Assembly (NCBI GenBank): GCA_046329875.1
Contig: JAXLTT010000005.1
Span: 64,507-128,506, forward strand
Source of the DNA: Bacteroidales bacterium
GTDB lineage: Bacteria; Bacteroidota; Bacteroidia; Bacteroidales; VadinHA17
Direction of reading: 5' to 3'
Length of the DNA stretch: 64,000 nt
The first letter of the stretch is position 1, and each line of letters starts with the position of its first letter. The notes under the pieces are model-generated. The model worked only from the letters and a program-made list of their open reading frames with translations, had not been told where the DNA came from and searched no databases. The position numbers and the translations under genes are program-made. Positions 44,570 to 60,421 of the stretch are shown here, piece by piece.

Positions 44570-44578
44570 TGTGTAAGA

Positions 44579-45898
44579 TTATCTCCTGCCGATGAGCTTT
44601 GCCTTGTTCCCGCTCTTTGTGACCATTTTCATCATCTTCCTGGTCTCGTCAAACTGTTTAAGAAGCCTGTTTACCTCCTGCACTGAAGTGCCGCTTCCTT
44701 CGGCAATCCTTTTCCTTCTTGAACCGTTAAGAATGGCTGGATTCTGCCTTTCCATCGGTGTCATACTTCGTATTATGGCTTCAATTCCTTTGAAAGCGTT
44801 GTCATCTATATCAAGGTCCTTCACAGCTTTTCCGACTCCCGGAATCATAGACATAAGGTCCTTGACGTTCCCCATTTTCTTAATCTGCTGTATCTGGGCA
44901 ATGAAATCATCGAAGTCGAACTGATCCTTAGCAATCTTCTTCTGCAGTTTTCTTGCCTCTTCCTGGTCGAACTGTTCCTGGGCTTTTTCAACAAGAGAAA
45001 CAATATCACCCATCCCGAGTATCCTGTCGGCCATCCTCTGGGGATAGAAGATATCGATGGCGTCCATTTTCTCCCCGGAGCTGACAAACTTAATCGGTTT
45101 GTTTACTACTGATTTAATAGAGAGGGCGGCACCACCCCTTGTATCACCGTCTAGTTTTGTGAGAACAACACCGTCGAAATCGAGCCTGTCATTGAATTCC
45201 TTTGCAGTGTTTACAGCATCCTGGCCTGTCATTGAATCAACAACAAAGAGTATTTCGTGCGGGGAAACTGCCGATTTAACGGCTGCTATCTCCTTCATCA
45301 TCTCCTCGTCAACAGCAAGCCGGCCCGCCGTGTCAATAATAACTATATCACGGCCGGTCATTTTTGCTTCCTTAACCGCATTTTTTGCAATAGCGACAGG
45401 ATTCAGGTTACCTTCCTCTGTATATACCGGTATTTCGATCTGCTGGCCAAGTACTTTCAGCTGTTCAATAGCTGCAGGCCTGTAAACGTCGCCGGCAACA
45501 AGCAGGGGATTCTTACCCCTTTTGCTTTTTAACCATTTTGCAAGTTTACCGCTGAATGTTGTTTTACCCGAGCCCTGGAGACCAGCAATAAGAATGACAG
45601 AAGGGTTAATCTTTATATTGATATCTGTCTTATCGGCACCCATAAGTTCAACAAGCTCGTCGTGGACGATTTTTACCATCATCTGCGACGGGTTGACTGC
45701 TTTAAGTACCTCCTGGCCGAGAGCTTTCTGCTTAACTGTATCTGTGAATTGCTTTGCTATTTTGAAGTTCACATCGGCATCAAGGAGAGCCCTTCTGACC
45801 TCCTTCAGTGTTTCAGCAACATTTATCTCTGTGATCCTTCCTTCTCCTTTAAGCATTTTAAAGGAGCGCTCAAGCCTTTCACTTAAATTCTCAAACAT
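44579..45898 (-). CDS. ffh: signal recognition particle protein
   Basis: GTPase motifs [14 protein letters not shown] and TKLDGD, plus a Met-rich M domain. Confidence 0.93.
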
Positions 45899-45919
45899 TA
45901 TTTATAGTAGTTTTCGTTA

Positions 45920-47707
45920 TTACATTCTTTCCGGCATTTCAATACCAAGCAGCGACATTCCGCTGTTTAGTATTTCGCATACCGATTGCGATAATGAGAG
46001 CCTGAAGCTCCTTATAACCGGATCCGCCTCACCAAGTATTGAATAATCGTGATAGAACTGGTTGTATTCCCTTGCAAGCTCATAGCAATAGTTGGCAATT
46101 AATGCCGGGCTGAAGCTTGTTCCAGCCTCTGAGACCACGGGTGCGAATTTGAGCATAAGCTTAAGAAGTCCAGCCTCCTTCGCAGCCGGTTTCAGCTCAG
46201 AAAGCTCAGGCAGGCTCGAAGAGATGCCTGTCGTTTCAGCCTTTTTCAAAACCGACCTTATCCTTGCATAAGTATACTGGATGAAGGGACCTGTATTTCC
46301 ATTGAAATCGATCGACTCCGAAGGATTGAATGTCATATTCTTCTTCGGGTCAACTTTCAAAATAAAATACTTAAGCGCCCCGAGACCTATTTTACGGAAG
46401 ATCTCCTCTTTTTCAAAATCGCTGTAGTTTTCAAGTTTACCAAGTTCAAGGGAAACTTCCCTTGATGTATCAATCATTTCGGTTATCAGATCGTCGGCGT
46501 CAACTACTGTACCTTCACGGGATTTCATTTTTCCTTCCGGCAGTTCCACCATTCCGTAAGAAAAATGGATAATGCCTTCAGACCAGCTGTAACCCATCTT
46601 TTTAAGTACGGCACGTAATACCTGGAAGTGGTAGTTCTGCTCATTTCCAACTACATAAAGGCATTTGTCGAAGTTGTACTGGTTGTGCCTGAGCATTGCT
46701 GTTCCAAGGTCCTGGGTCATGTAAACAGCTGTACCATCAGAGCGAAGCAGGAGTTTCTGGTCAAGTCCCTCTGAAGTCATGTCGGCCCATACTGATCCGT
46801 CAGGGTTCCTGTAAAGTACTTTATCTTCGAGAGCTTTCCATACTATCTCCTTACCGTCCATATAGGTTTCGGATTCATAGTATATTATGTCGAAATCAAC
46901 TCCAAGACGGGCGTAGGTTTCGTCAAAACCTGCATAAACCCATGAATTCATTTTCTTCCAGAGCTCTATTACTTCAGGGTCACCGGCCTCCCATTTAACA
47001 AGCATCTCACGCGCTTCAACCATCAGTGGAGCTGAGTTTCTGGCTTCTTCCTCCCCAATTCCCCTGGCTATAAGTTCCTCTGCTTCCTTTTTTAATTGCT
47101 TCTCGAAGAGAACGTAATATTTACCAACTAGGTGGTCGCCCTTCATTCCTGCTGAAGTCGGGGTCTCGCCATTTCCATATTTCTGCCAGGCGAGCATTGA
47201 TTTACAGATATGAATGCCCCTGTCGTTAACAATATTGGTCTTTATGACTTTATGGCCGCAGGCTGTAAGAATCCTGTACAGTGAATATCCAAGAAGGTTA
47301 TTCCTTATATGACCAAGATGAAGCGGCTTATTCGTGTTTGGCGATGAATACTCAACCATAATAACTTCAGGCGAAGCTGTTTTGCAGCTTTCAAGAAAAT
47401 TGCCGCTCTTAATAAGCTTTTCATATTCACCAAGCCACCATTTTTCTGAAATTACAAGGTTCAGAAAGCCCTTGATCACATTATAGCCGGAAATGAGGCT
47501 GAAGTTCTCAACAAGCCATTTTCCAATGCTTTCAGCTGTTTGTTCCGGTGTGATTTTTGAATACCTGAGAACAGGGAAAACAACGAAAGTGAAATCACCT
47601 TCGAATTCCTTTCTTGTCTCCTGAATCTGCACAAGTTTTTCATCAACTTCGCAGTTATACAGGAATCCGACAGCTTCCTTTACTTTTTCCCTTATCAGTT
47701 CTTCCAT
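45920..47707 (-). CDS. argS: arginine--tRNA ligase
   Basis: HIGH-region motif SSPNTNKPLHLGHIRN and a C-terminal anticodon-binding (DALR-type) domain. The likely start is MEELIREK (ATG 47707); the ORF track extends to 47782. Confidence 0.92.
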   Translation of the reverse strand: MEELIREKVKEAVGFLYNCEVDEKLVQIQETRKEFEGDFTFVVFPVLRYSKITPEQTAESIGKWLVENFSLISGYNVIKGFLNLVISEKWWLGEYEKLIKSGNFLESCKTASPEVIMVEYSSPNTNKPLHLGHIRNNLLGYSLYRILTACGHKVIKTNIVNDRGIHICKSMLAWQKYGNGETPTSAGMKGDHLVGKYYVLFEKQLKKEAEELIARGIGEEEARNSAPLMVEAREMLVKWEAGDPEVIELWKKMNSWVYAGFDETYARLGVDFDIIYYESETYMDGKEIVWKALEDKVLYRNPDGSVWADMTSEGLDQKLLLRSDGTAVYMTQDLGTAMLRHNQYNFDKCLYVVGNEQNYHFQVLRAVLKKMGYSWSEGIIHFSYGMVELPEGKMKSREGTVVDADDLITEMIDTSREVSLELGKLENYSDFEKEEIFRKIGLGALKYFILKVDPKKNMTFNPSESIDFNGNTGPFIQYTYARIRSVLKKAETTGISSSLPELSELKPAAKEAGLLKLMLKFAPVVSEAGTSFSPALIANYCYELAREYNQFYHDYSILGEADPVIRSFRLSLSQSVCEILNSGMSLLGIEMPERM

Positions 47708-47728
47708 TTGCAGCTCAAATTTCAGCCG

Positions 47729-47736
47729 CAAATATA
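47729..47736 (-). promoter_or_regulatory. Bacteroidota-type -7 box (TATATTTG) for argS
   Basis: Plus-strand CAAATATA, 21 nt upstream of ATG 47707. This also supports the shorter argS start. Confidence 0.5.
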
Positions 47737-47885
47737 ATATTTTAAAACTTTGATAACCAACCAGCCAGTAGCAAACAGCCAATAAAAATCACGGCATCAA
47801 TTTGCTTTCTGTGAAATGACCGAAATATTTGACAACCGTTCATTACTTTTTGATGAAGAGACAAATCATATATTAAAAGAAGTCA

Positions 47886-47893
47886 TACATTTG
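47886..47893 (+). promoter_or_regulatory. Bacteroidota-type -7 box (TACATTTG) for the DUF1987 gene
   Basis: Matches TAnnTTTG, 43 nt upstream of ATG 47937. Confidence 0.45.
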
Positions 47894-47936
47894 GCTATGT
47901 TGTTGTGATACAACAGCGGAACAGAAAATTACCGAG

Positions 47937-48392
47937 ATGGAAAGTAAAAACCTTTTAATTGATCCGACCTCCAAGACACCACTGGTCGATTTCAATGCCC
48001 TGACCGGAGACCTCATCCTGTCGGGTCGATCCATCCCGGAGAATGCCACTGAACTTTATGATCCGCTTCTTAAATGGGTTAATGACTATCTCAAATCACC
48101 GCGAAAAACAACCAATTTCAGGATCAATCTTGAATACTTCAATACGGCTTCGTCTATCTGGCTCGCGAAGATTGTAAAAGCATTAAGCAGGATGACCGAT
48201 CCCGAAAATGTTCTTTTCATCCATCTCTATTTTAATATCGAGGAATTCGATAATATGGAGACCGAAGATCTCAGGGATACAATCAGTCCGGTTGTTGATA
48301 TAATGAGTGATGCAGTCATCAGTATCGGTGTGAAGATATATGGCACCGATGAAAAAGGTGAGATAATCAAGGAATCAATGGTTCTTATCTGA
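47937..48392 (+). CDS. SiaC-family (DUF1987) protein
   Basis: Family-typical N-terminus (IDPTSKTPLVDFNALTGDLILSGRSIPENATELYDPLLKWVNDYL) and the LEYFNTASS segment. Confidence 0.75.
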   Translation: MESKNLLIDPTSKTPLVDFNALTGDLILSGRSIPENATELYDPLLKWVNDYLKSPRKTTNFRINLEYFNTASSIWLAKIVKALSRMTDPENVLFIHLYFNIEEFDNMETEDLRDTISPVVDIMSDAVISIGVKIYGTDEKGEIIKESMVLI

Positions 48393-48466
48393 CCTTCTTT
48401 TTTTAAGATTTCCCGGCCCCTTGTTTTGCATTTTTGGACTACCTTTAGTAGGTAAATTGCATCGTT

Positions 48467-49972
48467 ATGTGCAGGTACCGGATTATTATTCTATTAACTG
48501 CAATTCAGATAAATATGTTCGCACAGAACCAGCCGGTTGACAGGGAACCATATGCTGCAGGCAGATTCTACGCCTCTGACAGCGAAACCCTGAGGAAAGA
48601 TTTGGCATCTCTTTTCAGCGCCGCAGTAAAGCCAGGCAAGGATCTGCCTGTAAGGGCAATCATAGTACCACATGCCGGGTACGTTTTTTCAGGCAAGACT
48701 GCTGCAAGTGCATTTTCTGCTATCTCACCGGCCGCGGAGTACAGTAATATCTTCATAATAGGATCAAGCCATGTTGCAGCCTTTGATGGAGTATCCGTAT
48801 ATGGCAGCGGTGATTTTATAACTCCTCTCGGAAAGGTAAAAGTCAATACTGAAATATCTCAAAAGCTAAAGGAATTAAAACTGTTCCGCTTCCCCGAATC
48901 TGTCCAGGCAAGGGAACACAGCATAGAAGTTCAGCTGCCTTTCATACAGTACTATTTCAGGAAGGTCCCTCCTGTTGTTCCGATTGTTATTGGCACCGAT
49001 GACCCCGAAAAAATAAAAGAAATAGCTGCAGCATTAAAGCCATATTTTCGCCAGGAAAACCTGTTTATTATAAGCTCGGATTTTTCACATTACCCTCCAT
49101 ACAGGGATGCCGTAATTATCGATGACCTGACAGCAGGCAGCATTGTGTCCAAAAATCCGGCTGCCTTCCTTGAGACTCTGGGCGCCAATAGCCGCAAAAA
49201 TATAAATGGGCTGGCGACAAGCATGTGCGGATGGACCTCAGGCCTTGCCCTTATTTACCTGTCGATGGATGATCCGAAACTGGAGTTTAGAAAGATTGAT
49301 TACACAAATTCGGGGGATTCAAAGTATGGTGACAGGGAAGGCGTTGTTGGTTATAACGCAATTGTCCTTTATGAAAACAAAAGTCCGAAGGGAGAAAAAG
49401 CCCATGACGACAGTGAAGTTAAATTCACAGATGACGAAATTGACCAGCTTTTCTCAATAGCAAGAGGCAGTATAAAAAGCAAATTCAGCACTGGAAGGCA
49501 CCAGGTTGTGGATGCTTCGAAAATATCCCCTGCTCTGAAGAAGAACATGGGCGCTTTCGTTACACTAAAAATTGACGGGATGCTCAGGGGGTGTATCGGG
49601 CAGTTCACAGCCGACAGGCCCCTGTTCGAAGTCGTAAACGATATGGCTTACGAATCAGCATTCAGTGATGGACGCTTTGATCCGCTTACCCAGGGAGAAT
49701 TTCAGAAAGTTGAGATCGAAATATCTGTACTCGGACCTTTAAAGAAAATAAAAGATATATCGGAGATCATTCCGGGCCGTCATGGAATCTATATTAAAAA
49801 GGACTTCAGGTCAGGTACAATGCTCCCCCAGGTTCTGACTGAAAATCACTGGACACTCGAGCAGTTCCTTGGTTATACTTCACGTGAAAAGGCCGGGCTT
49901 GGCTGGGACGGCTGGAAGAATGCCGATCTTTATATCTATGAAGCCGTAGTCCTTGAAGAAAGAAAGAAGTGA
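48467..49972 (+). CDS. AmmeMemoRadiSam system protein B (Memo-like) fused to protein A (AMMECR1-like), with a signal-like N-terminus
   Basis: Memo half: YASDSETLRKDL...IVPHAGYVFSG...FIISSDFSHY. AMMECR1 half: GAFVTLKIDGMLRGCIGQF...GIYIKKDFRSGTMLPQV. The N-terminus is MCRYRIIILLTAIQINMFAQ. Confidence 0.85.
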   Translation: MCRYRIIILLTAIQINMFAQNQPVDREPYAAGRFYASDSETLRKDLASLFSAAVKPGKDLPVRAIIVPHAGYVFSGKTAASAFSAISPAAEYSNIFIIGSSHVAAFDGVSVYGSGDFITPLGKVKVNTEISQKLKELKLFRFPESVQAREHSIEVQLPFIQYYFRKVPPVVPIVIGTDDPEKIKEIAAALKPYFRQENLFIISSDFSHYPPYRDAVIIDDLTAGSIVSKNPAAFLETLGANSRKNINGLATSMCGWTSGLALIYLSMDDPKLEFRKIDYTNSGDSKYGDREGVVGYNAIVLYENKSPKGEKAHDDSEVKFTDDEIDQLFSIARGSIKSKFSTGRHQVVDASKISPALKKNMGAFVTLKIDGMLRGCIGQFTADRPLFEVVNDMAYESAFSDGRFDPLTQGEFQKVEIEISVLGPLKKIKDISEIIPGRHGIYIKKDFRSGTMLPQVLTENHWTLEQFLGYTSREKAGLGWDGWKNADLYIYEAVVLEERKK

Positions 49973-52398
49973 CGATGTACCATGTTGAAGCCATCGGTCT
50001 TACTTCATTATTGCTTTATCTTTTAAGCTTTTCAGCATACAGGAACGGACTGATCAGCAAGGCTTCACACAGGAAGGCCTGGAACATACTGCTTGCCGGA
50101 TCCTTCCTCTTTGCAGCTCTTGCTGGTATCTTCCTCGCCCTTCAGGCTTCATACAAATGGGAAATTCAATTTGTAAAGCCACTGCTTAAATGGCATGTTG
50201 AATTTGGGATAGCGCTGGCTTTCACAGGAAGCTATCATTTAATATTTCACCTGCCATATTTCTTTGGCCGGAAGGAAAGTTTCCAACCTGTTGATCCTCC
50301 TGTAAATAACAGTTTATCAGGAAAAGAAGCTATAAGAAATAACCTGCTGGTAATCGGCTTTGTAAGTACATCAGTCCAGTTGCTGCTAATGAGAGAGGTT
50401 CTCAACCTGGCAGGAGGTTATGAACTGATCTCGGGCATTTTTCTTGCTTCATGGCTCACGGGATCAGCGGCAGGATCAACTGCTGCAAGATACTCAGGTG
50501 TATATTATATAAGAAAGCTCAATTTCCTTTTTGGAACCGCAATTATAATTTCATTGCTCCTGATTCCTCTCCTGTCCGGGCTGTTTCTTGAGAAAGGAGA
50601 AACACCGTCGTTCTTCCTGTCTGTGATTTATACAGTTATTGTACTGCTCCCCTTCACATTTATTTCGGGCTTCACTTTTACAAGAATCCTGATTGTTGCG
50701 TCCGCTGCCCGGACCTGCAAGCCAGGCTCTTCTTTTTCCATTGAAACCGCAGGTGGTATTATCGGAGGAATCACTGTGACTATCCTGAGTCATAACCTTC
50801 TTGGAACATATCAGCTATTGGCCATTATTTTAATCCTGTATTTTTTTTACTGGATAACCACCTTTATATCAGGAAATCCCAGGGTATTAATTTCCACACT
50901 TTCAGCTGCAATAATTCTGGTTATTGCAGTTATTTTTCTGAAACCGGATGTGTTTATGCGCGGCCTTCTGATGCAGGGTATAAAAGTGACACGATCTGCC
51001 GATACACAATATGGTAACATCACAACAGGTGAATACTCAGGAGAACAGGCCATATACTATAACCAGCGCCTGCTGGCATGGTCGGGTAATGAGGCCGAAA
51101 GGGAGGAGAATGTTCATTATGCAATGCTTCAGCATCCGGATCCGAAAAAGGTACTCGTAATTTCAGGCGATCTGAATGCAATAATACAGGAAGTACAAAA
51201 GTACAAGCCTGAAAAGGTTACTTATGTTGAGAGGGACCCTGGACTGCTCGCGATTTTAAAGGAAAATAGTAAGATAAACTCTTCCGGTGTAACTGTAATC
51301 AATGCCGATCCATACCATTACATGACTGAAACAGGTGATTCATGGGATGTCATATTGATGCTCGAAGCTCCTCCTTCCACATTGCTTTTGAACAGGATGT
51401 ATACAACCGATTTTTTCAGGATTGCAGCCCTCCGGCTCAAGGGTAAAGGGATCTTTATGTGTTCTCCTGGTCCTGGTGAGAATTATTTCAACACTGAATC
51501 AAGGGCCCTGTATTCCTCTATTTATAATTCAATGGCATCTGCATTCAGAAATGTTGTACCTGTTATAGGGAACAGGCTTTATTTAATTGCTTCTGATGAT
51601 TCAGTATCCACCGGGATATGCTCACTTGTTGATAAGCGTGGTATAAGGAATACATATGTAAGCAGCGACTTCCTGGCTGATGACATAATTAAATCAAGGA
51701 GCAGTGCATTTCTTTCAGGGCTTGACCCTGCTGAGAAATCTAATACACTTGATTTCCCTGTCGCCTGCCTGTGGTTTCAGAAATATAACCTGAGCAGGTC
51801 GCTTACCGGGCTGGTACCGGTACTGATTCTTATAATAGTACTCTTTATAATGCCGTCTTTAACAGTGAGAAGGAGGCATCTTCCTATGTATTTTTCAGCA
51901 GCAGCACTGGCCGGCTTCGAGATAATTGCACTGGTTCTCCTCCAGTCGTCTGCAGGCAATATATACCAGGGTTCGGGGCTTATAATAGCATCGGCCATGG
52001 CAGGATTGGCGGCAGGTGCAGGAATAAACAGGGTGTTCTTTGCCAGGTACAGGCTCTATGCCCTTACAGCAGTAATGTTCATAGTATATTTCTCATATTC
52101 ATTCATTGTTGATCTGATCCTGGAGTCGAACCCCGGGACTCCCGGAATATTTATTATTTCTACGCTGGTTCTTGTTCCGGCTTTCTTTACAGGACAGTTA
52201 TTCAGGGTGTTAAGCGAGTCTCTTGAAGATGATAAACTCTCCGGGCTGTACAGTGCTGATCTTAAGGGATCAGCATTATGTTTTGCACTTACGGCAGGTG
52301 TTGCAGTTCCGGCTGCAGGGCTGCACAGCTCTGTGTTAATTATAGCTGGTTTTGCACTGGCTGCTTTACTTTCAGTACCATTGCGAGGCAATGCATAG
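49969..52398 (+). CDS. polytopic membrane protein with a central spermidine-synthase-like domain (fused membrane/SpeE-like family)
   Basis: Many TM helices lie on both sides of a soluble segment co-linear with SpeE (KVLVISGDLNAIIQEVQKYKPEKVTYVERDPGLL; WDVILMLEAPPS...YTTDFFRIAALRLKGKGIF). The start is either GTG 49969, overlapping the upstream stop, or ATG 49975. Confidence 0.75.
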   Translation: MTMYHVEAIGLTSLLLYLLSFSAYRNGLISKASHRKAWNILLAGSFLFAALAGIFLALQASYKWEIQFVKPLLKWHVEFGIALAFTGSYHLIFHLPYFFGRKESFQPVDPPVNNSLSGKEAIRNNLLVIGFVSTSVQLLLMREVLNLAGGYELISGIFLASWLTGSAAGSTAARYSGVYYIRKLNFLFGTAIIISLLLIPLLSGLFLEKGETPSFFLSVIYTVIVLLPFTFISGFTFTRILIVASAARTCKPGSSFSIETAGGIIGGITVTILSHNLLGTYQLLAIILILYFFYWITTFISGNPRVLISTLSAAIILVIAVIFLKPDVFMRGLLMQGIKVTRSADTQYGNITTGEYSGEQAIYYNQRLLAWSGNEAEREENVHYAMLQHPDPKKVLVISGDLNAIIQEVQKYKPEKVTYVERDPGLLAILKENSKINSSGVTVINADPYHYMTETGDSWDVILMLEAPPSTLLLNRMYTTDFFRIAALRLKGKGIFMCSPGPGENYFNTESRALYSSIYNSMASAFRNVVPVIGNRLYLIASDDSVSTGICSLVDKRGIRNTYVSSDFLADDIIKSRSSAFLSGLDPAEKSNTLDFPVACLWFQKYNLSRSLTGLVPVLILIIVLFIMPSLTVRRRHLPMYFSAAALAGFEIIALVLLQSSAGNIYQGSGLIIASAMAGLAAGAGINRVFFARYRLYALTAVMFIVYFSYSFIVDLILESNPGTPGIFIISTLVLVPAFFTGQLFRVLSESLEDDKLSGLYSADLKGSALCFALTAGVAVPAAGLHSSVLIIAGFALAALLSVPLRGNA

Positions 52399-52419
52399 TT
52401 CCTTAATAATTACTTATAA

Positions 52420-53562
52420 ATGGATAATCTTAAGCATGGAATTTCAAAACGCGACTTCCTGAGAAAATGCTCGGTTTTATCAGCATGTGCCCTGATATCA
52501 CCAGGTGACATGCTTGTGACCCCGGGCGGACAGGAGCGCGACAGGTCGCTAAGGAAAATTGCAATGTTCCAGGAGGAGACTGCCAGGGGCATAATGTGCA
52601 GGATATGCCCGAATGAGTGCGTTCTGAAGGAAGGTGAAGTAAGCAAATGCAATAACAGGAAGGTTTACAAATCGCAGCTCTACACGATGGCTTACGGGAA
52701 TCCGTGCTCGGTTGCAATAGATCCGGTTGAGAAAAAACCATTATATCATTTTTATCCGGGTTCAAGGGCTTTTTCAATAGCCACCGCCGGGTGTAATCTT
52801 GTTTGCCTTAACTGCCAGAACTGGACAATTTCCCAGACAAGCCCTGATAAGACTGTAAATACAGAACTTATGCCAGGCTCCGTGGCTGAACAGGCAGCAG
52901 CCAGTAACTGCAGGTCAATTGCTTATACCTATTCCGAGCCAAATACTTTTTATGAATATGCCCTGGATACTGCAGTTGCCGCAAGAAAAAAAGGGATTAA
53001 GAACATTTTCAAGTCAAATGGCTATATAAATCCTGAACCCCTTAAAAAGATTTGTGAGGTGATCGACGCGGCTAATATAGATCTAAAGGCGATAACTGAA
53101 AGCACTTATCTGAAACTTACTGGCGGCAAGCTCCAGCCTGTTCTTGACAGCCTTAAGATATACAAGGAAATGGGTGTCTGGCTTGAAATCACGAACCTTG
53201 TAATACCGCAATGGACAGATAAAACAGATGAGATAAGGAATATGTGCAGATGGCTTGCAGATAACGGGCTTGCTGAAGTTCCCATTCATTTCAGCAGGTT
53301 CTACCCTATGCATAAACTTGAACAACTCCCTCCTACTCCTGTTGAACTTCTTAACCGTGCTGCAGATATTGCAAATGAGGAAGGGCTGATGTATGTTTAT
53401 ACAGGAAATGTACCGGGGAATGAAAGATCCGATACAAAGTGTCATTCCTGCGGTACAACAGTTGTTAAAAGGCAGGGATTCAGGGTGGTGGCCAATACAA
53501 TAAAAAAGGGATCATGCCCGAAATGCAATACAAGGATACACGGGGTCTGGAACATGGATTAA
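52420..53562 (+). CDS. AmmeMemoRadiSam system radical SAM enzyme (PflA-like) with a Tat-like N-terminal extension
   Basis: CxxxCxxC radical SAM motif GCNLVCLNCQNW, preceded by DPVEKKPLYHFYPGS. It has an N-terminal Cys-rich CRICPNEC segment and a C-terminal CHSCG...CPKC. The N-terminal extension is SKRDFLRKCSVLSACALISPG. Confidence 0.85.
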   Translation: MDNLKHGISKRDFLRKCSVLSACALISPGDMLVTPGGQERDRSLRKIAMFQEETARGIMCRICPNECVLKEGEVSKCNNRKVYKSQLYTMAYGNPCSVAIDPVEKKPLYHFYPGSRAFSIATAGCNLVCLNCQNWTISQTSPDKTVNTELMPGSVAEQAAASNCRSIAYTYSEPNTFYEYALDTAVAARKKGIKNIFKSNGYINPEPLKKICEVIDAANIDLKAITESTYLKLTGGKLQPVLDSLKIYKEMGVWLEITNLVIPQWTDKTDEIRNMCRWLADNGLAEVPIHFSRFYPMHKLEQLPPTPVELLNRAADIANEEGLMYVYTGNVPGNERSDTKCHSCGTTVVKRQGFRVVANTIKKGSCPKCNTRIHGVWNMD

Positions 53563-55596
<2,034 letters not shown>

Positions 55597-55643
55597 ATAT
55601 TAATTTTTGCCCTACATTTCCAAAAATCTTTTAGGTTTGTATT

Positions 55644-56204
55644 ATGGAACTGTTTAAAAATTTTCGTCTGAACCGTGGTCAATCTGTATTGCGTAAAAAA
55701 CTTTCCAGGACCAGGCGTAAGAAATTCAGGGGGAACATTTCCTCGGCTAAAAGGATCGGCCTTATCTGGGATGCCTCAAACCCTGATGAATTCAGTGTAC
55801 TCTCCCAGTTTCACCAGAAGCTTGCTGAAAGGAACATAGACCTGTCAATACTTGGCTACTATCCTGCCAAAGAGATTCCGGATAAAATCACTGCAATCCG
55901 TTACCTTGTATGTCTCAAGACGCAGGATCTGAATTATACTTTCAGGCCGGTAAGTGATGAAGCCTCCAGGTTCATAAGTTCAGGATTCGATATCCTTATA
56001 GATGCAAATTTCCGGAATCATTTCCCTCTTGAATATATCTCAACACTTTCTGACGCAGGATTCAAGGTAGGGATCTTTGATAATGGCTATAAACAACCCC
56101 AGTTTGACCTGATGATTGATGTGGACAGGAAGAGCGGATTGAACAATTACCTTGAACAGGTGGTTCATTATCTGGAAATGATTAATACAAGCCAGAATAA
56201 ATAA
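55644..56204 (+). CDS. conserved hypothetical protein (ligA-dapA spacer gene)
   Basis: 186-aa ORF with coding-like composition. A -7-like TAGGTTTG box at 55632-55639 lies only 4 nt from the ATG, which suggests either a leaderless mRNA or a different start. I do not confidently recognise a family. Confidence 0.55.
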   Translation: MELFKNFRLNRGQSVLRKKLSRTRRKKFRGNISSAKRIGLIWDASNPDEFSVLSQFHQKLAERNIDLSILGYYPAKEIPDKITAIRYLVCLKTQDLNYTFRPVSDEASRFISSGFDILIDANFRNHFPLEYISTLSDAGFKVGIFDNGYKQPQFDLMIDVDRKSGLNNYLEQVVHYLEMINTSQNK

Positions 56205-56219
56205 GCTAAAAGTGTACAG

Positions 56220-57098
56220 ATGAAAAAGCTGAAAGGAACGGGTGTAGCTATCGTCACACCATTTAAAAGCGACATGAGCATTGACTTCACAGCCTTTGGC
56301 AGGGTAGTTAACCATGTAATCAAGGGAGGTGTGAATTATATTGTGGCGATGGGCACAACAGGTGAATCTGTAACTCTGACAAAAGACGAAAAGAAGGCCG
56401 TTGTAAGCTATGTAATCGAAGCAATTGACGGTCGTGTTCCGCTTGTAGTAGGGATTGGCGGTAACAATACCCAGGAAATAATCAACCAGATAAGGGGCAT
56501 CGATTTCAAGGGAATTGATGCAATATTGTCTGTTTCTCCATATTACAATAAACCCAGTCAGCGCGGGATATTTCAGCACTTCAAGGCAATAGCAACATGC
56601 TCGCCGGTGCCTGTAATAATTTACAATGTCCCTGGCAGGACAGGGAGCAATATTTCTGCAGAAACAACCTTGCAGCTTGCACATGAGTGCGAGAACATTG
56701 TTGCAGTAAAAGAAGCTTCGGGCAACATGGAACAGATAATGAAGATAGTCCGTGGAAAGCCTGAAAACTTTGGTGTCATTTCCGGTGATGATATGAACAC
56801 CCTTCCAATTATAGCCGCAGGTGGCAGTGGTGTTATCTCCGTTCTGGCAAATGCATATCCTGCTGAGTGGAGCGAGATGGTAAACCAGTGCATGAAATCA
56901 AACTTCAAGGCCGCAAGGGAAATTCAATTCCGCTTCCTTGAAATGATGGAACTGCTTTTTATAGATGGAAGTCCCGCCGGCGTTAAAGCAATGCTTAACA
57001 ATATGAATCTCTGCCAGAATACTCTCAGGCTCCCGCTTGTACCTGTCAGCAGGACAGTGTACTCGAGGATCCAGAAAGCAATGGAAGAGATAAAGTAA
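56220..57098 (+). CDS. dapA: 4-hydroxy-tetrahydrodipicolinate synthase
   Basis: GTGVAIVTPF, GTTGES and IIYNVPGRTG motifs. Confidence 0.92.
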   Translation: MKKLKGTGVAIVTPFKSDMSIDFTAFGRVVNHVIKGGVNYIVAMGTTGESVTLTKDEKKAVVSYVIEAIDGRVPLVVGIGGNNTQEIINQIRGIDFKGIDAILSVSPYYNKPSQRGIFQHFKAIATCSPVPVIIYNVPGRTGSNISAETTLQLAHECENIVAVKEASGNMEQIMKIVRGKPENFGVISGDDMNTLPIIAAGGSGVISVLANAYPAEWSEMVNQCMKSNFKAAREIQFRFLEMMELLFIDGSPAGVKAMLNNMNLCQNTLRLPLVPVSRTVYSRIQKAMEEIK

Positions 57099-57100
57099 TC

Positions 57101-60100
57101 CTACATTCCGGCAGGTGCTGACGCTCCTGGCTGTGACTGCCCGTGACAGTTTTTGTATTTCTTACCACTTCCGCATGGACAGGGGTCGTTCCTTCCTACT
57201 TTCTTATCAACCCTCACAGGTTCAGTTTTTCTGCCCTGCTCTCCTCCCCCTCCGGTGCTGCTGTATTGTGAGAAGTCGCTTTTTGAAGCCCTCATATTGC
57301 TCATGTCAACCTGCCTCTTTCTTTCAGCTTCCTTTACCTGCTCCGGATTCTGGGTCGGAATATGACCCTTCATCAGGGTGCTTACAACATCCTTGTTGAC
57401 CTTTGTTACCATGTTGCGGAACAACTCGTAGGATTCGAACTTGTAGATGAGCAGCGGATCCTTCTGTTCATATGTGGCGTTCTGTACCGACTGTTTAAGC
57501 TCATCCATCTCCCTCAGGTGCTCCTTCCATTCGTCATCTATAGTGGCCAGTACAACTGTTTTTTCATATGCCCTTGCAAGCTCTTTTCCCTTGGTCTCAA
57601 CAGTCGATTTCAGGTTTGTAACAACCTGGAACACCTTGAACCCGTCGGAGATTGGAACCACAACATTTTCATATATGTGGGACATCCTCTCATGAACGTC
57701 CTTCAGTACAGGATATGCCTGTGCTGATATTGCTTCTTCTTTTCTTTTGTAGGTTTCAAGAACCTTGTCGTATACACTTGCGGTGATATCGGATGTGGCC
57801 TGTCTTGCAAATTCTTCCCTGCCTACAGGTGAATCCATTGAAAATGACCTGATAAGGTCAAAGTCAAATCCTTCAAAATCACCATCCTTATGATAAGTTT
57901 CAACAAGTGATTCGGTGACATCATACATCATGTTTGCAACGTCGACGGTAAGCCGTTCGCCGAGAAGGGCATGTTTTCTTTTCTTGTAGATCACCTCGCG
58001 TTGTGAGTTCATCACGTCATCATATTCAAGCAGTCGTTTCCTTATGCCGAAGTTGTTCTCCTCAACTTTTTTCTGTGCCCTCTCTATAGATTTTGTGATC
58101 ATTGAATGCTGGATCATTTCACCATCTTTAAGGCCGAGCCTGTCCATGATGCCAGCTATTCTTTCTGAACCGAAAAGTCTCATAAGCTCATCTTCAAGTG
58201 AGACGAAGAACTGCGACGAACCCGGGTCTCCCTGTCTTCCTGCACGACCTCTCAGCTGCCTGTCGACCCTCCTTGATTCATGACGTTCTGTACCGATAAT
58301 TGCCAGACCACCGGCAGCTTTTACTTCAGGTGTCAGTTTTATATCGGTTCCCCTACCAGCCATGTTGGTTGCAATAGTAATTGTACCTTTCTTTCCTGCC
58401 TCTGCAACAATTTCTGCTTCCCTCTGGTGAAGCTTGGCATTCAGGACATTATGTTTCAGCCCTTTCATCTTGAGCATCCTGCTCAGAAGCTCGGATATCT
58501 CAACAGAAGTTGTACCTACAAGAACAGGTCTTCCCTCGTTATACATCTTCTGAATTTCATCGATGACAGCGTTATATTTTTCCCTCTTTGTTTTATAAAC
58601 AATATCTTCCCTGTCGTTCCTTATACATGGAACATTAGTGGGTATCACAACCACATCAAGTTTGTAGATATTCCAGAGTTCACCGGCTTCAGTTTCTGCT
58701 GTACCTGTCATACCGGCAAGTTTGTGGTACATCCTGAAATAGTTCTGAAGCGTTATGGTTGCATAGGTCTGTGTTGCGGCCTCGACCTTTACATTTTCCT
58801 TTGCTTCTATTGCCTGGTGGAGCCCGTCTGAATACCTCCTGCCTTCAAGAATACGTCCTGTCTGTTCATCAACAATCTTAACCTTGTTATCCATCACAAC
58901 GTACTCATCGTCTTTTTCGAAGAGAGTATATGCTTTAAGCAACTGGGTAAGTGTGTGAACCCTGTCGGACTTTACTGAATAATCCTGTAACAGTTCATCC
59001 TTTGCAAGAAGCTTATCGCGGTCTGACATTGTTGATTTTTCGAGTTCAGCGATCCTTGAACCGACATCCGGGAGAATAAAGAAGCTTGAATCTTCGACAG
59101 ATGTTGAGATCAGGTCCAGACCTTTTTCGGTAAGCTCTATTGTATTGGCTTTTTCATCAATAATAAAGTACAGCTCATCAGTAACCTTAGGCATCTCCTT
59201 GCTGTTGTTCTGCATGTAATAGTTCTCAGTCTTCAGCAGGAGTGTCTTATTCCCTTCTTCGCTAAGGAACTTTATAAGTGCATTATTTTTTGGAAGACCT
59301 TTGAAGGCACGAAGAAGAAGCAGTCCACCTTCCTCAGACTTATCTTCAGAAATAAGTTTCTTGGCATCTGCAAGTATCTGTGTAACCAGTCGTTTCTGTG
59401 CCGATACAAGTTTTTCAACCTTTGGTTTCAGCTCGTCAAACTGCTGGTTATCTGCCTGCGCTGTAGGACCGGAAATAATAAGCGGGGTCCTTGCATCATC
59501 GATAAGAACAGAGTCAACCTCGTCCACAATTGCATAGTGATGCCTTCTCTGGACAAGGTCTTCGGGATTTATAGCCATATTATCCCTCAGGTAGTCGAAG
59601 CCAAATTCGTTATTTGTGCCGAATGTAATATCGGCAAGGTAGGCCTTTCTCCTGTCGGCCGAGTTTGGCTGGTGTTTATCAATACAATCAACAGTAAGGC
59701 CATGGAACTCATATATCGGGCCCATCCACTCCGAGTCCCTCTTTGAAAGGTAGTCGTTTACAGTTACAATATGGACGCCACGTCCGGCAAGTGCATTCAG
59801 GAATACAGGAAGTGTCGCAACAACAGTTTTACCTTCACCTGTTGCCATCTCTGCAATTTTACCTTTATGAAGGGCTACGCCTCCGATCAGCTGAACATCG
59901 TAATGTACCATGTCCCAGGTGATCTCGTTTCCGCCTGCTATCCATTTGTTAGACCACTCAGCCGAGTTGCCTTTAATTGTAACAGAAGGCCTTGTTGCTG
60001 CCAGGTCCCTGTCATATTGTCTTGCTGTAACTTCAAGCACACTGTGTTCCTTGAATCTCCTGGCAGTCTCTTTAACAATAGCAAAAGCCTTTGGGAGAGC

Positions 60101-60421
60101 TGCGTCGAGTATGCCTTCAAGTTTCTGTTCTATATTCTTCTCGAGCTTATCTATCTTATTGTATATCTCTTCTTTGGCATAAACATCTTCTTCTGCTTCA
60201 GCTTTTTCTTTCAGTTTGCGTATCTCGTCTTCATCTTCCGCTATACCCTTAAGAATTTCGTTCCTGAGTTCTGCCGTTTTGTCTCTTAACTCGTCATTGG
60301 TCAGGTTCTGAAGAAGTGAATATTCCTTATGTACCTTTTCTACATAAGGTTCTATCTCCTTCATATCACGCTCATACTTGTTACCAAGAAAAAGACCAAG
60401 AACCTTTGTTACTATGCTCAT
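57101..60421 (-). CDS. secA: preprotein translocase ATPase SecA
   Basis: Walker [38 protein letters not shown] and the C-terminal zinc motif [14 protein letters not shown]. Confidence 0.95.

What the first reader, a model, noticed from the sequence alone, without database searches (positions are those of the whole stretch)
48467..53562. AmmeMemoRadiSam locus with an embedded 809-aa polytopic spermidine-synthase-like protein
Three tightly packed co-directional genes make up this locus.
1. A Memo(B)-AMMECR1(A) fusion.
2. An 809-aa multi-TM protein whose start either overlaps the fusion's stop (GTGA, 49969-49972) or sits 2 nt after it (ATG 49975). Its soluble core is co-linear with spermidine synthase.
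3. The PflA-like radical SAM partner, 21 nt further on.

The AMMECR1/Memo/radical-SAM trio is a comparative-genomics-defined system with no known substrate or product. I am not aware of a description in which a membrane aminopropyltransferase-like protein sits inside it.

The glycine-rich dcSAM loop, which I recall as GGGDG-type in bona fide SpeE, reads SGDLN here. The domain may therefore act as a binding or scaffold module and not as a transferase.

The N-terminal helices carry several histidines (HRKAWN, KWHVEFG, YHLIFH). These could ligate a cofactor.

The arrangement suggests a membrane-associated modification machine.
Basis: partly seen in the sequence, partly recalled or inferred. Interest (0 to 1): 0.7.

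Follow-up and report, generated by a model that had tools for sequence, protein, structure and literature searches.

The report
Exported AmmeMemoRadiSam system with membrane partner
This locus is a widespread but apparently undescribed version of the enigmatic Memo/AMMECR1/radical-SAM system, in which all parts are predicted to face the periplasm and a 17-helix membrane protein with a catalytically disabled spermidine-synthase-like domain is a constant extra component, which implies radical-SAM chemistry outside the cytoplasm.

Summary
Three co-directional genes encode a Memo-AMMECR1 fusion (48467-49972), a polytopic protein with a SpeE-fold core (true start ATG 49975, 807 aa) and the AmmeMemoRadiSam radical SAM enzyme (52420-53562).

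The membrane gene is not a chance neighbour. Relatives only 28-45% identical, from Bacteroidota, Ignavibacteriales, KSB1 and an Acidobacteriia-labelled MAG, sit next to the same two genes in 32 of 35 loci with enough flank. Flanks and gene orientation differ between these loci. Six canonical amrS loci have no such gene.

The membrane protein has three parts:
- an optional three-helix, four-histidine module;
- two homologous six-helix halves in a 6+2+6 MFS-like layout;
- a SpeE-fold domain between the two central helices, predicted periplasmic.

The domain keeps adenosyl-binding positions but lacks the aminopropyltransferase aspartates.

The fusion carries a Sec-type signal peptide. The radical SAM enzyme carries a Tat-like signal (KR in Bacteroidota, RR elsewhere). 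Canonical versions have neither.

Best reading: an exported variant of the system whose membrane subunit supplies or positions SAM, and perhaps electrons. The linkage is shown. Localisation and role are inferred. Substrate and product remain unknown.

The parts
48467..49972 (+). amrB-amrA fusion: Memo (B) plus AMMECR1 (A), 501 aa
   Evidence: Pfam Memo at aa 28-299 and AMMECR1 at aa 330-494. TIGR04336 and TIGR04335 score above their cutoffs. The RGCIG motif (aa 374-378) and the DGRF motif (aa 401-404) are present. These are the AMMECR1 active-site motifs described in PMC2034487.
48467..48523 (+). Predicted Sec signal peptide of the fusion (MCRYRIIILLTAIQINMFA|QNQ)
   Evidence: The TIGR04336 model starts at aa 26, so the first 25 aa are an extension. 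All 81 orthologues listed have M[RK], a hydrophobic core and [SA]|Q. Distant orthologues have the same signal or a Cys-x-x-Q lipobox-like version. The Ideonella canonical fusion has no such extension. The cleavage site follows the Bacteroidetes Q-rule, which I cite from memory.
49975..52398 (+). MEM: 807-aa polytopic membrane protein with a SpeE-fold domain
   Evidence: ORF. Start inferred from homologues. AlphaFold gives 17 TM helices plus a soluble domain. Its relatives are annotated as 'fused MFS/spermidine synthase', NF037959.
49975..50259 (+). N-terminal three-helix module with conserved histidines H32, H74, H88 and H92 (plus W36 and N37)
   Evidence: These residues are invariant. In one search, H74 is >=90% conserved and the others are invariant. 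The module is present in about half of the family representatives, 67 of 134. DUF4405 matches are sub-threshold in 6 of 10 members, best E 5.9e-4, and span the whole 66-position model. DUF4405 has been shown to bind heme b (PMC11334425). The AlphaFold model is weakest in this region, pLDDT 42-75.
50323..50871 (+). First six-helix repeat (TM4-TM9), the MFS-like N-half
   Evidence: hhalign of the N-half against the C-half gives 98.3% probability, E 2e-14, over 171 columns. An isolated model of this half plus TM10 (aa 112-330) has pLDDT 88. Most of its top 50 Foldseek hits are MFS transporters, but the best E is only 0.13. Family-wide conserved polar residues are Q135, R140, E150 and E257.
50878..50940 (+). 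Central helix TM10 (cytoplasm to periplasm)
   Evidence: AlphaFold helix. The preceding loop is K/R-rich: 1.7 in the window clade and 2.0 family-wide.
50980..51744 (+). SpeE-fold soluble domain, predicted periplasmic
   Evidence: Fold evidence is. The location rests on two arguments: the positive-inside rule and the domain's position between the two extra central helices of a 6+2+6 layout. Conserved positions are G398, E419, D445, D458, E377/E378/H381 and N473-R474. The catalytic-aspartate equivalents are L463 and P466.
51802..51858 (+). Central helix TM11 (periplasm to cytoplasm)
   Evidence: AlphaFold helix. It is followed by VRRR, with a mean of 2.8 K/R in the window clade.
51871..52371 (+). 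Second six-helix repeat (TM12-TM17), the MFS-like C-half
   Evidence: hhalign result. Conserved residues are Q657, G661, Y759 and D762. The YSxDLxGS motif mirrors YAxESxGS in the N-half.
52420..53562 (+). amrS: AmmeMemoRadiSam radical SAM enzyme, 380 aa
   Evidence: TIGR04337 scores 363.5 against a cutoff of 220. Motifs present: CNLVCLNC at aa 125-132, an N-terminal CRICPNEC, and C-terminal CHSC and CPKC. The closest solved structure is PflA at E 2e-9.
52420..52581 (+). N-terminal extension of amrS with a Tat-like signal (S-K-R-D-F-L-R-K at aa 9-16, then a mildly hydrophobic stretch)
   Evidence: The TIGR04337 match starts at aa 55. The KR.F[LI][KR] motif is present in 74 of 75 window-clade orthologues. 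In the distant set, 52 of 60 have KR and 1 has RR. Six of the other seven have the motif in variant form or upstream of a non-ATG start, and the seventh (L162) is a misplaced-start fragment. KSB1, an Acidobacteriia-labelled MAG and L147 have true RR. All six canonical amrS lack the extension.

Best explanation
The locus encodes an exported, membrane-bound variant of the AmmeMemoRadiSam system. It has a dedicated extra subunit, here called MEM.

Shown by the data:
- MEM, the Memo-AMMECR1 fusion and the radical SAM enzyme form one conserved three-gene module. This holds across several phylum-level labels and does not depend on the surrounding synteny.

Inferred from sequence signals:
- The fusion is exported by Sec.
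- The Fe-S radical SAM enzyme is exported, or membrane-anchored, by Tat.
- MEM's SpeE-fold domain sits on the periplasmic side, in the loop between the two central helices of a 14-helix MFS-like core.
- All catalytic parts therefore meet at the outer face of the inner membrane.

Inferred mechanism:
- MEM provides what radical SAM chemistry lacks outside the cytoplasm.
- Its transporter-like core moves SAM, or exchanges SAM for 5'-deoxyadenosine, MTA or SAH.
- Its SpeE-derived domain holds the adenosyl ligand next to the radical SAM enzyme. This domain keeps the adenosyl-binding half of the site but has lost the aminopropyl-transfer aspartates.
- In the long forms, including the window protein, the N-terminal four-histidine module may carry electrons across the membrane through heme b.

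The substrate and product of the Memo/AMMECR1/radical SAM chemistry stay unknown.

My confidence by step: linkage as a module about 0.9, periplasmic location about 0.65, SAM or electron supply role about 0.35.
For: Linkage
- All 85 window-clade loci (L001-L085) keep the order fusion-MEM-rSAM wherever flank exists.
- MEM relatives only 28-34% identical to the window protein are embedded in the same way with unrelated flanks. Examples are L086 and L088, KSB1 L172 and the Acidobacteriia-labelled L173.
- A metagenome scan used patterns taken only from MEM, so it was not biased toward the other genes. It gave 80 loci. With L086-L088 that makes 83, of which 74 have the fusion and/or rSAM adjacent. 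Of the 35 with enough flank on both sides, 32 have both.
- Orientation varies: the fusion is divergent in 15 loci.
- No other gene family recurs in these neighbourhoods. The commonest is found in 11 of 83 loci.
- Six canonical amrS loci on plasmids have no MEM within 6 kb.

Localisation
- Signal peptides are present on all fusions listed.
- The KR/RR-x-F-L-K signal is present on nearly all MEM-linked rSAM enzymes and on none of the six canonical ones.
- In L086, a neighbouring oxidoreductase has a canonical SRREFITK signal, so that organism appears to use Tat.
- K/R content alternates cleanly between loops in 134 family representatives: 1.2-3.6 per 'in' loop against 0.0-0.4 per 'out' loop from TM4 onward. 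The soluble domain falls on the 'out' side.
- The two 6-TM halves are homologous and parallel. The domain lies between two extra central helices.

Domain chemistry
- The SpeE fold is supported.
- Conserved positions are G398, E419 (equivalent to the ribose-binding acid), D445 (equivalent to the adenine-binding acid) and the EE..H motif.
- The family loop is SGG[ILV][ST]G, with a hydrophobic residue where SpeE has the dcSAM-selecting Asp. From memory, this is the change seen in SAM-using putrescine N-methyltransferase.
- The catalytic aspartates are not conserved.

Transporter likeness
- NCBI names the family 'fused MFS/spermidine synthase'.
- Most of the top 50 Foldseek hits of the half-domain model are MFS transporters.

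Histidine module
- Its histidines are conserved.
- It gives sub-threshold DUF4405 and cytochrome-b-type hits.
- DUF4405 is a heme-b protein proposed to serve extracytosolic electron transfer.
Against: - No experiment bears on any step.
- SAM is not known to occur in the periplasm, and I know of no MFS-type SAM exporter.
- Heme b potentials are usually too high to reduce a radical SAM cluster.
- Half of the family lacks the histidine module, and no substitute gene is conserved nearby.
- The Tat motif is KR, not RR, in nearly all Bacteroidota and Ignavibacteria sequences. This could mean weak export or no export.
- In the window's own clade the glycine-rich loop has decayed to SGDLNA, so adenosyl binding may be weakened here.
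- The MFS fold signal is not statistically significant (best E 0.13). There is no Pfam MFS hit.
- The DUF4405 hits are below the gathering score.
- One MEM gene stands alone in a 6.2-Mb contig (L087).
- Topology rests on the positive-inside rule and on architecture, not on a dedicated predictor or on data.
Confidence: 0.5

Rival explanations
1. MEM handles the pathway's substrate, not the cofactor. Its MFS-like core exports or flips a small molecule or lipid. The exported enzymes then modify that molecule, and the SpeE-fold domain performs one more SAM-dependent alkyl or methyl transfer on it.
For: The domain has a class-I methyltransferase/SpeE fold with a largely intact nucleotide site in most of the family. 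About half of the family keeps an acidic residue at the second catalytic position: E in 40 and D in 24 of 134. The core has a transporter-like layout. The abstract of Burroughs et al. 2019, which I recall from memory and could not read here, links Memo contexts to isoprenoid modification. That would fit a membrane partner.
Against: Canonical cytoplasmic systems have no methyltransferase-like member, so an extra transfer step is not intrinsic to the pathway. A periplasmic transferase would still need SAM outside the cell. The first catalytic Asp is N or L in most members. The window clade has lost the glycine-rich loop.
Confidence: 0.22
2. The system is split across the membrane. The KR motif does not drive export but tethers the radical SAM enzyme at the cytoplasmic face. 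MEM passes the enzyme's product to the periplasmic Memo-AMMECR1 fusion and SpeE-like domain.
For: KR replaces RR in nearly all Bacteroidota sequences, while another Tat substrate in the same contig keeps RR. SAM and low-potential reductants are available only in the cytoplasm (general knowledge). In Segatella the fusion has a signal-like N-terminus while amrS has none, so split localisation may exist elsewhere.
Against: Orthologues in KSB1, an Acidobacteriia-labelled MAG and L147 have true RR motifs at the same position. Apart from the first arginine, the motif matches the Tat consensus at every position, and a typical mildly hydrophobic stretch follows it. Natural KR Tat signals on Fe-S proteins are known, for example Salmonella TtrB and the plant Rieske protein (from memory).
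Confidence: 0.15
3. MEM is only a membrane anchor or scaffold that gathers the exported enzymes. It transports nothing and binds no ligand.
For: The window clade's decayed nucleotide loop argues against ligand binding there. MEM evolves faster (45-49% identity) than the fusion (57-62%) or the radical SAM enzyme (68-72%) within the clade.
Against: Buried polar residues in the membrane (Q135, R140, E150, E257, Q657, D762) and nucleotide-site residues (G398, E419, D445) are conserved in at least 88% of 134 representatives. That is more than a scaffold would need.
Confidence: 0.1
4. MEM is a genuine membrane-bound polyamine aminopropyltransferase, and its position inside the locus is an accident of conserved synteny.
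For: The Pfam Spermine_synth hit lies above the gathering score. JGI annotates relatives as 'spermidine synthase'. The whole folD-to-secA block is syntenic in 58 of the 85 window-clade loci.
Against: Linkage persists where synteny is lost and across phyla. The catalytic aspartates and the GGGDG acid are absent. All NCBIfam aminopropyltransferase models score far below cutoff, for example 65.7 against 472. The domain is predicted to face the periplasm, where dcSAM is not known to occur.
Confidence: 0.03

Closest known systems
Canonical AmmeMemoRadiSam system (amrA/amrB/amrS; TIGR04335, TIGR04336, TIGR04337)
   Same: All three family models are matched above cutoff. The AMMECR1 RGCIG and DxRF motifs and the radical SAM CxxxCxxC motif are kept. 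The B-A fusion next to amrS also occurs in canonical loci of Segatella and Ideonella. The function is unknown in both versions.
   Different: The canonical loci examined (six amrS loci, two with an adjacent B-A fusion) have no membrane gene between or beside the genes and no Tat-like extension on amrS. The Ideonella fusion has no signal peptide. In the window locus every product carries an export or topology signal, and MEM is a constant extra member.
NCBIfam NF037959 'fused MFS/spermidine synthase'
   Same: Relatives of the window protein at phmmer E of about 1e-70 to 1e-99 are members or borderline: P0184 scores 68.1 and P0204 scores 50.0 against a cutoff of 40, and P0140 scores 39.7. NCBI names many of them so.
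   Different: The window protein itself gives no NF037959 hit at E<=0.01. The model covers only the N-half plus the SpeE domain (480 positions). The name says nothing about the C-terminal six helices, the histidine module, the periplasmic placement or the link to AmmeMemoRadiSam. I found no paper on the family.
Polyamine aminopropyltransferases (SpeE, thermospermine synthase; PRK03612 membrane-anchored form)
   Same: They share the fold (Foldseek E 1e-10, target TM 0.61-0.74). The ribose- and adenine-contacting acids are kept (E419, D445). PRK03612 aligns over the last helices plus the domain.
   Different: The GGGDG acid and both catalytic aspartates are missing. Scores are far below every equivalog cutoff. 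The domain is inserted between two transporter halves and is predicted to be periplasmic.
14-helix (DHA2-type) MFS transporters
   Same: Both have two homologous, parallel six-helix bundles joined by two extra central helices. Most top fold matches of the half-domain are MFS transporters.
   Different: The fold match is not significant (E>=0.13), and there is no Pfam MFS hit. I know of no MFS transporter that carries a 250-residue enzyme-fold domain in the central periplasmic loop.
DUF4405/FezC/MsrQ-type heme-b membrane cytochromes
   Same: Both have conserved histidines in transmembrane helices. DUF4405 matches span the whole model in 6 of 10 members, though below threshold. That family binds heme b and is proposed to feed extracytosolic redox enzymes (PMC11334425).
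   Different: The score is below the gathering threshold: 12.6 bits against 26.7 for the window protein. The module has three helices rather than six. No PDB relative was found. Heme binding is untested.
Pyruvate formate-lyase activating enzyme (PflA)
   Same: It is the closest solved structure to amrS (3c8f, E 2e-9), and the TIGR02493 model gives a partial match.
   Different: amrS scores 60 against a cutoff of 232 for PFLA. It has extra N-terminal and C-terminal cysteine motifs and, in this locus, a Tat-like signal.

Membership tests
AmmeMemoRadiSam system | Protein B (Memo-like) matches TIGR04336 above cutoff | tested here: met
   215.8 bits against a cutoff of 26, aa 26-300
AmmeMemoRadiSam system | Protein A (AMMECR1-like) matches TIGR04335 above cutoff, with RGChG and DxR[aromatic] motifs | tested here: met
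   157.9 bits against a cutoff of 99. RGCIG at aa 374-378 and DGRF at aa 401-404. The motifs are defined in PMC2034487.
AmmeMemoRadiSam system | Radical SAM partner matches TIGR04337 above cutoff, with CxxxCxxC | tested here: met
   363.5 bits against a cutoff of 220. CNLVCLNC at aa 125-132.
AmmeMemoRadiSam system | The genes for A, B and the radical SAM enzyme are neighbours | tested here: met
   They share one strand. The gaps are 2 nt and 21 nt, with MEM in between.
AmmeMemoRadiSam system | Layout of the canonical loci examined: soluble proteins without export signals and no membrane partner | tested here: not met
   The fusion has a signal peptide and amrS a Tat-like signal, with MEM embedded. 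All six canonical amrS loci lack the amrS signal and MEM, and the Ideonella fusion lacks a signal peptide.
Polyamine aminopropyltransferase (SpeE) | SpeE/class-I methyltransferase-like fold | tested here: met
   Pfam PF01564 scores 48.2 against 22.9. PDB profile E 4e-16. Foldseek E 1e-10 with target TM 0.61-0.74.
Polyamine aminopropyltransferase (SpeE) | Score above NCBIfam equivalog cutoffs | tested here: not met
   PRK03612 scores 65.7 against 472, PRK00811 45.9 against 260, TIGR00417 41.6 against 249.6.
Polyamine aminopropyltransferase (SpeE) | GGG(D/E)G loop whose acidic residue selects dcSAM | tested here: not met
   The window protein has SGDLNA and the family has SGG[ILV][ST]G. The role of the acid is cited from memory of the SpeE and PMT literature.
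Polyamine aminopropyltransferase (SpeE) | Two catalytic or amine-binding aspartates in the D-[SL]-x-D-P segment | tested here: not met
   The window protein has L463 and P466. In the family, position 463 is N in 71, L in 13 and D in 12 of 134. Position 466 is E in 40, P in 37 and D in 24 of 134.
Polyamine aminopropyltransferase (SpeE) | Catalytic domain in the cytoplasm, where dcSAM is made | tested here: not met
   The domain is predicted periplasmic by the positive-inside rule and by the 6+2+6 architecture. This is a prediction, not a measurement.
NF037959 fused MFS/spermidine synthase | HMM score at or above 40 bits | tested here: inconclusive
   The window protein gives no hit at E<=0.01. 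Its homologues P0184 (68.1) and P0204 (50.0) pass, and P0140 (39.7) is borderline. Homology of the window protein to these is clear, at E 1e-70 to 1e-99.
Major facilitator superfamily | Two homologous six-helix bundles with the MFS fold | tested here: inconclusive
   The internal repeat is clear: hhalign 98.3%, E 2e-14. Most top fold matches are MFS transporters, but the best E is 0.13 with query TM 0.44-0.53. There is no Pfam MFS_1 hit at E<=1.
Tat (twin-arginine) substrates | S/T-R-R-x-F-L-K motif followed by a mildly hydrophobic region on a cofactor-containing protein | tested here: inconclusive
   The window protein has S-K-R-D-F-L-R-K. KR occurs in 74 of 75 window-clade and 52 of 60 distant sequences. 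True RR occurs in L147, L172 and L173. The Fe-S content of amrS is inferred from its family.
Tat (twin-arginine) substrates | Tat translocase encoded in the genome | not testable with these tools
   Only 64 kb of this genome is available. Indirect hint: a canonical SRREFITK signal on a neighbouring oxidoreductase in L086.
DUF4405-type heme-b cytochromes | Pfam PF14358 above the gathering score of 26.7 | tested here: not met
   The window module scores 11.6-12.6 bits. Six of 10 relatives match below threshold, best E 5.9e-4.
DUF4405-type heme-b cytochromes | Conserved histidines in transmembrane helices; heme b binding | tested here: inconclusive
   The histidines are conserved. Heme binding cannot be tested here.

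The most novel reading that the evidence does not exclude
Radical SAM chemistry takes place outside the cytoplasm. A Tat-exported AmmeMemoRadiSam enzyme and a Sec-exported Memo-AMMECR1 fusion work at the periplasmic face of the inner membrane. They are served by a single membrane protein that exports or exchanges SAM through an MFS-like core. That protein holds SAM in a SpeE-derived, catalytically retired domain. In its long form it also conducts electrons through a heme-b histidine module.
Probability: 0.3. Interest if true: 0.9.

Novelty: new variant of a known kind. Interest (0 to 1): 0.78.

Why it matters
AMMECR1 and Memo are conserved from archaea to humans and are linked to human disease. 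Neither has a known reaction. Their bacterial partnership with a radical SAM enzyme has been the main clue since 2007 (PMC2034487).

A variant in which every part is predicted to be exported argues against a nucleic-acid substrate, at least for this variant. It points instead to an envelope or membrane target.

As far as I know, it would also be the first case of radical SAM chemistry outside the cytoplasm. That raises two concrete questions: how do SAM and low-potential electrons reach the periplasm? The embedded membrane protein offers a candidate for both.

The module is compact: three genes, with clear signals. It can therefore be tested directly by localisation assays, ligand binding and transport assays.

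Tried and rejected
1. Window-clade synteny as evidence of linkage. I rejected it as uninformative on its own. In 58 of 85 loci the whole folD-to-secA block is syntenic. I therefore went to relatives at 28-45% identity.

2. SiaC-family gene upstream as a fifth component. Rejected. It is absent from all 83 distant loci.

3. Search for any further conserved neighbour, by clustering 631 flanking ORFs. Nothing recurs in more than 11 of 83 loci.

4. Lipoprotein reading of the fusion's signal. It is not consistent. Many sequences have Cys-x-x-Q, which fits signal peptidase I with Q at +1 equally well. I left the signal as 'exported'.

5. Lipobox in the amrS signal. Not consistent on inspection.

6. 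PDB relatives of the histidine module. Only chance-level hits, E>=0.5.

7. Pfam hits for the two membrane halves of the window protein. None, even at E<=10.

8. Pfam MFS hits for five relatives. None at E<=1.

9. Apparent absence of the KR signal in L135, L150 and L164. This was an artefact of taking the first ATG. The motif lies upstream, behind a non-ATG start.

10. Literature. Nothing relevant on AmmeMemoRadiSam function, on the MEM family or on exported radical SAM enzymes. Burroughs et al. 2019 could not be fetched.

11. Other Tat-motif proteins in the 64-kb window. None apart from amrS.

Full report
**What is in the window**

- The first (48467-49972, 501 aa) is a Memo-AMMECR1 fusion. 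It matches Pfam Memo and AMMECR1. It matches the AmmeMemoRadiSam B and A models above their cutoffs, 215.8 against 26 and 157.9 against 99.
- The third (52420-53562, 380 aa) matches the system's radical SAM model, 363.5 against a cutoff of 220.
- Between them lies a long polytopic ORF. Its GTG at 49969 overlaps the fusion's stop, and an ATG follows at 49975.
- All aligned homologues begin or align at MYHV. I therefore take ATG 49975 as the start, which gives 807 aa.
- The gap from this ORF to the radical SAM gene is 21 nt.

I call the middle protein MEM and use 807-aa numbering throughout.

**The SpeE-like core**

- Pfam Spermine_synth matches above the gathering score, 48.2 against 22.9.
- A profile of 12 family members finds only aminopropyltransferases in PDB, best 6bq2 at E 4e-16.
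- An AlphaFold model (pLDDT 75.6, pTM 0.79) returns only aminopropyltransferases among its top 50 Foldseek hits. The best is E 1e-10, with target TM 0.61-0.74.

The fold claim therefore holds. Membership in the enzyme family does not.

- Every NCBIfam aminopropyltransferase model scores far below cutoff, for example 65.7 against 472.
- The printed alignment puts iSGdlk opposite GGGEG, and l-llpPP opposite the catalytic GDLADP.
- In 134 family representatives the loop is SGG[ILV][ST]G.
- Aligned without gaps to the SpeE D-S-T-D-P consensus as I recall it, the first catalytic position is N (71), L (13) or D (12). The second is E (40), P (37) or D (24).
- Well kept are G398, E419 (opposite the ribose-binding acid), D445 (opposite the adenine-binding acid) and an EE..H motif opposite SpeE's YHE..H.

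My reading is that the adenosyl-binding half of the site survives and the aminopropyl-transfer half does not. The window's own clade has further decayed the loop to SGDLNA.

**Is the membrane gene really part of the system?**

The window clade alone cannot answer this.

- Of the relatives in species-representative genomes (202 found), the 80 kept, plus L001-L005, keep the three-gene order wherever flank exists.
- In 58 of those 85 loci the whole folD-ffh-argS ... ligA-dapA-secA block is syntenic as well.

I therefore searched 1.84 billion cluster representatives. That search gave 1029 hits at E<=1e-30, in three tiers:
- about 805 aa at 36-45% identity;
- 820-857 aa at 28-34% identity;
- about 700-730 aa, aligned only from residue ~120 onward, so lacking the N-terminal module.

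NCBI names many of these 'fused MFS/spermidine synthase'.

Contexts of distant members:
- P0140 (31% identical to the window protein) sits between a Memo-AMMECR1 fusion and an amrS with entirely different flanks.
- An Ignavibacteriales-labelled contig shows fusion then MEM before the contig ends.
- A KSB1 contig and an Acidobacteriia-labelled contig show fusion-MEM-amrS.
- One MEM in a 6.2-Mb contig stands alone.

A metagenome scan used peptide patterns taken only from MEM and returned 80 loci. I searched their ORFs with HMMs built from the window-clade proteins.
- Counting L086-L088 as well, 74 of 83 loci have the fusion and/or amrS adjacent.
- Of the 35 with at least 1.8 kb upstream and 1.5 kb downstream, 32 have both. 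That is 12 of 14 long forms and 19 of 20 short forms.
- The fusion is on the opposite strand in 15 loci, so the linkage survives rearrangement.
- No other gene family recurs. The commonest is in 11 of 83 loci, and SiaC is in none.
- Conversely, six canonical amrS loci on plasmids have no MEM within 6 kb. They come from Segatella, Ideonella, Trichlorobacter, Sinorhizobium, Methylocystis and Mycobacterium.

**Architecture of MEM**

- The model has ten helices, a soluble domain (about aa 336-590) and seven more helices.
- Profile-profile comparison of TM4-TM9 with TM12-TM17 gives 98.3% probability, E 2e-14, over 171 columns. Matching motifs include YAxESxGS and YSxDLxGS.
- The core is therefore two homologous, parallel six-helix bundles. 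They are joined by TM10, the soluble domain and TM11. This is the 6+2+6 plan of 14-helix MFS transporters.
- A separate model of the first bundle plus TM10 (aa 112-330; pLDDT 88) matches mostly MFS transporters among its top 50 hits. No hit is significant, with best E 0.13.
- Pfam gives no MFS hit.
- Buried polar residues Q135, R140, E150, E257, Q657 and D762 are conserved in at least 94% of 134 representatives.

**Topology and export signals**

- Mean K+R per loop alternates cleanly from TM4 onward, both in the window clade and in 134 family representatives. 'In' loops have 1.2-3.6 and 'out' loops 0.0-0.4.
- The loops on the far side of TM10 and TM11 are K/R-rich.
- The parallel-repeat layout independently puts anything between the two central helices on the side opposite the repeat termini. 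The soluble domain is therefore predicted to be periplasmic.

The fusion:
- It has an N-terminal extension relative to the family model, which starts at aa 26.
- In all 81 orthologues listed the extension reads as a signal peptide ending [SA]|Q.
- Distant orthologues have the same signal or a Cys-x-x-Q version.

The radical SAM enzyme:
- It has a 54-aa extension carrying S-K-R-D-F-L-R-K and a mildly hydrophobic stretch.
- The motif is present in 74 of 75 window-clade sequences and in 53 of 60 distant ones by regular expression.
- Six of the other seven distant sequences have it in variant form or upstream of a non-ATG start. The seventh (L162) is a misplaced-start fragment.
- It is KR in Bacteroidota-type loci. 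It is true RR in L147, the KSB1 locus and the Acidobacteriia-labelled locus.
- In L086 a neighbouring oxidoreductase carries SRREFITK while amrS carries TKREFLKR. KR is therefore specific to amrS.

All six canonical amrS lack the extension, and the Ideonella fusion lacks a signal peptide. The Segatella fusion, oddly, has a signal-like N-terminus.

**The histidine module**

- H32, H74, H88 and H92, together with W36 and N37, are conserved in every alignment that includes the module. H74 is >=90% conserved in A2 and invariant in the other alignments.
- The module is present in 67 of 134 representatives.
- Long and short forms are as similar to each other as to their own kind, so the module has been gained or lost repeatedly.
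- Six of 10 members give sub-threshold DUF4405 matches that cover the whole model, best E 5.9e-4. Scattered weak hits go to other heme-b membrane families.
- DUF4405 was shown to bind heme b and was proposed to carry electrons to extracytosolic enzymes (PMC11334425).
- This is a lead, not a finding. No PDB relative appeared, and the AlphaFold model is weakest in this region.

**How it most likely works**

- Shown: a conserved three-gene, five-domain module.
- Inferred from signals: all catalytic parts face the periplasm.
- Inferred by logic: when a radical SAM system moves out of the cytoplasm it loses access to SAM and to a low-potential reductant. The one gene that appears together with the export signals is MEM.
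- MEM combines a transporter-like core, an adenosyl-binding fold stripped of its transferase residues and, in half the cases, a candidate heme module.
- I therefore favour a supply-and-positioning role for MEM.

Rivals:
- a substrate exporter with an extra alkyl-transfer step;
- a split system in which amrS stays inside the cell;
- a plain scaffold.

The plain spermidine-synthase reading is effectively excluded.

**Relation to what is known**

- The AMMECR1/dioxygenase-like/radical SAM neighbourhood and its fusions were described in 2007 and read as a possible RNA base modification (PMC2034487).
- Later work referred to 'Memo-Ammecr1 systems' (PMC7159879).
- No structure of an amrS exists. PflA is the nearest.
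- I found no mention of a membrane SpeE-like partner or of exported radical SAM enzymes.
- I could not read Burroughs et al. 2019. From memory, its abstract extends Memo contexts toward isoprenoid modification, so prior notice cannot be excluded.
- I file the locus as a new variant of a known kind.

**Caveats**

- Localisation rests on motifs, the positive-inside rule and architecture.
- No dedicated signal or topology predictor, multimer model or whole genome was available.
- Taxon labels are those of MAG depositors.
- The canonical comparison set is small: six loci, all on plasmids.

Noticed in passing
window 47937-48392 (+): A SiaC-family regulatory phosphoprotein gene (PF09345, 84.3 bits) lies 74 nt upstream of the fusion. 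tblastn finds it there in nearly all window-clade loci that have upstream flank (not in L011 or L067). It is absent from all 83 distant MEM loci. It is a clade-specific neighbour, not part of the module.
   Followed up: yes
L025 10530-12926 (-); also L039, L079: In L025 an opposite-strand 798-aa ORF that reads as an FtsX/MacB-type ABC permease (by inspection; no HMM run) lies between MEM and amrS. L039 and L079 have a gap of the same size (~2.8 kb) that I did not inspect. In these genomes amrS cannot be co-transcribed with MEM.
   Followed up: partly
L169 4408-6825 (Segatella hominis plasmid NZ_CP137560): This locus shows a third layout. The amrB-A fusion has a hydrophobic, signal-like N-terminus (MRKIVLVVLLTMCMMMEA). 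The adjacent amrS is short (295 aa), has no KR/RR signal and lacks the C-terminal Cys motifs. There is no MEM.
   Followed up: partly
L086 1978-3372 (-) and 9642-10781 (+): In one contig a GFO_IDH_MocA oxidoreductase has a canonical SRREFITK Tat signal while amrS has TKREFLKR. The K-for-R change is therefore specific to amrS, not a lineage habit. Why KR is kept in about 126 of 135 Bacteroidota-type sequences is unexplained.
   Followed up: partly
L087 7001-9526: An 841-aa long-form MEM in a 6.2-Mb contig has no fusion or amrS within 7 kb. Its neighbours are a TonB-dependent receptor gene and a citrate synthase gene. Whether the partner genes lie elsewhere in that genome could not be checked.
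   Followed up: no
window 45920-47782 (-) and 53572-55596 (+): The mechanical ORF starts of argS (TTG, 620 aa) and ligA (TTG, 674 aa) are probably too far upstream. Called homologues are 595 aa and 668-669 aa.
   Followed up: no
window 43694-60421 against L001-L085: Within the syntenic block MEM is the fastest-evolving gene. It shows 45-49% identity. The fusion shows 57-62%, amrS 68-72% and ffh/secA 85-90%.
   Followed up: partly
L147 7926-13176: This locus has a different gene order: MEM, amrS, then a weaker-scoring Memo-AMMECR1 protein (269 bits). That protein has a long N-terminal extension and a membrane-anchor-like stretch. The amrS here has a true SRREFIKK signal.
   Followed up: no
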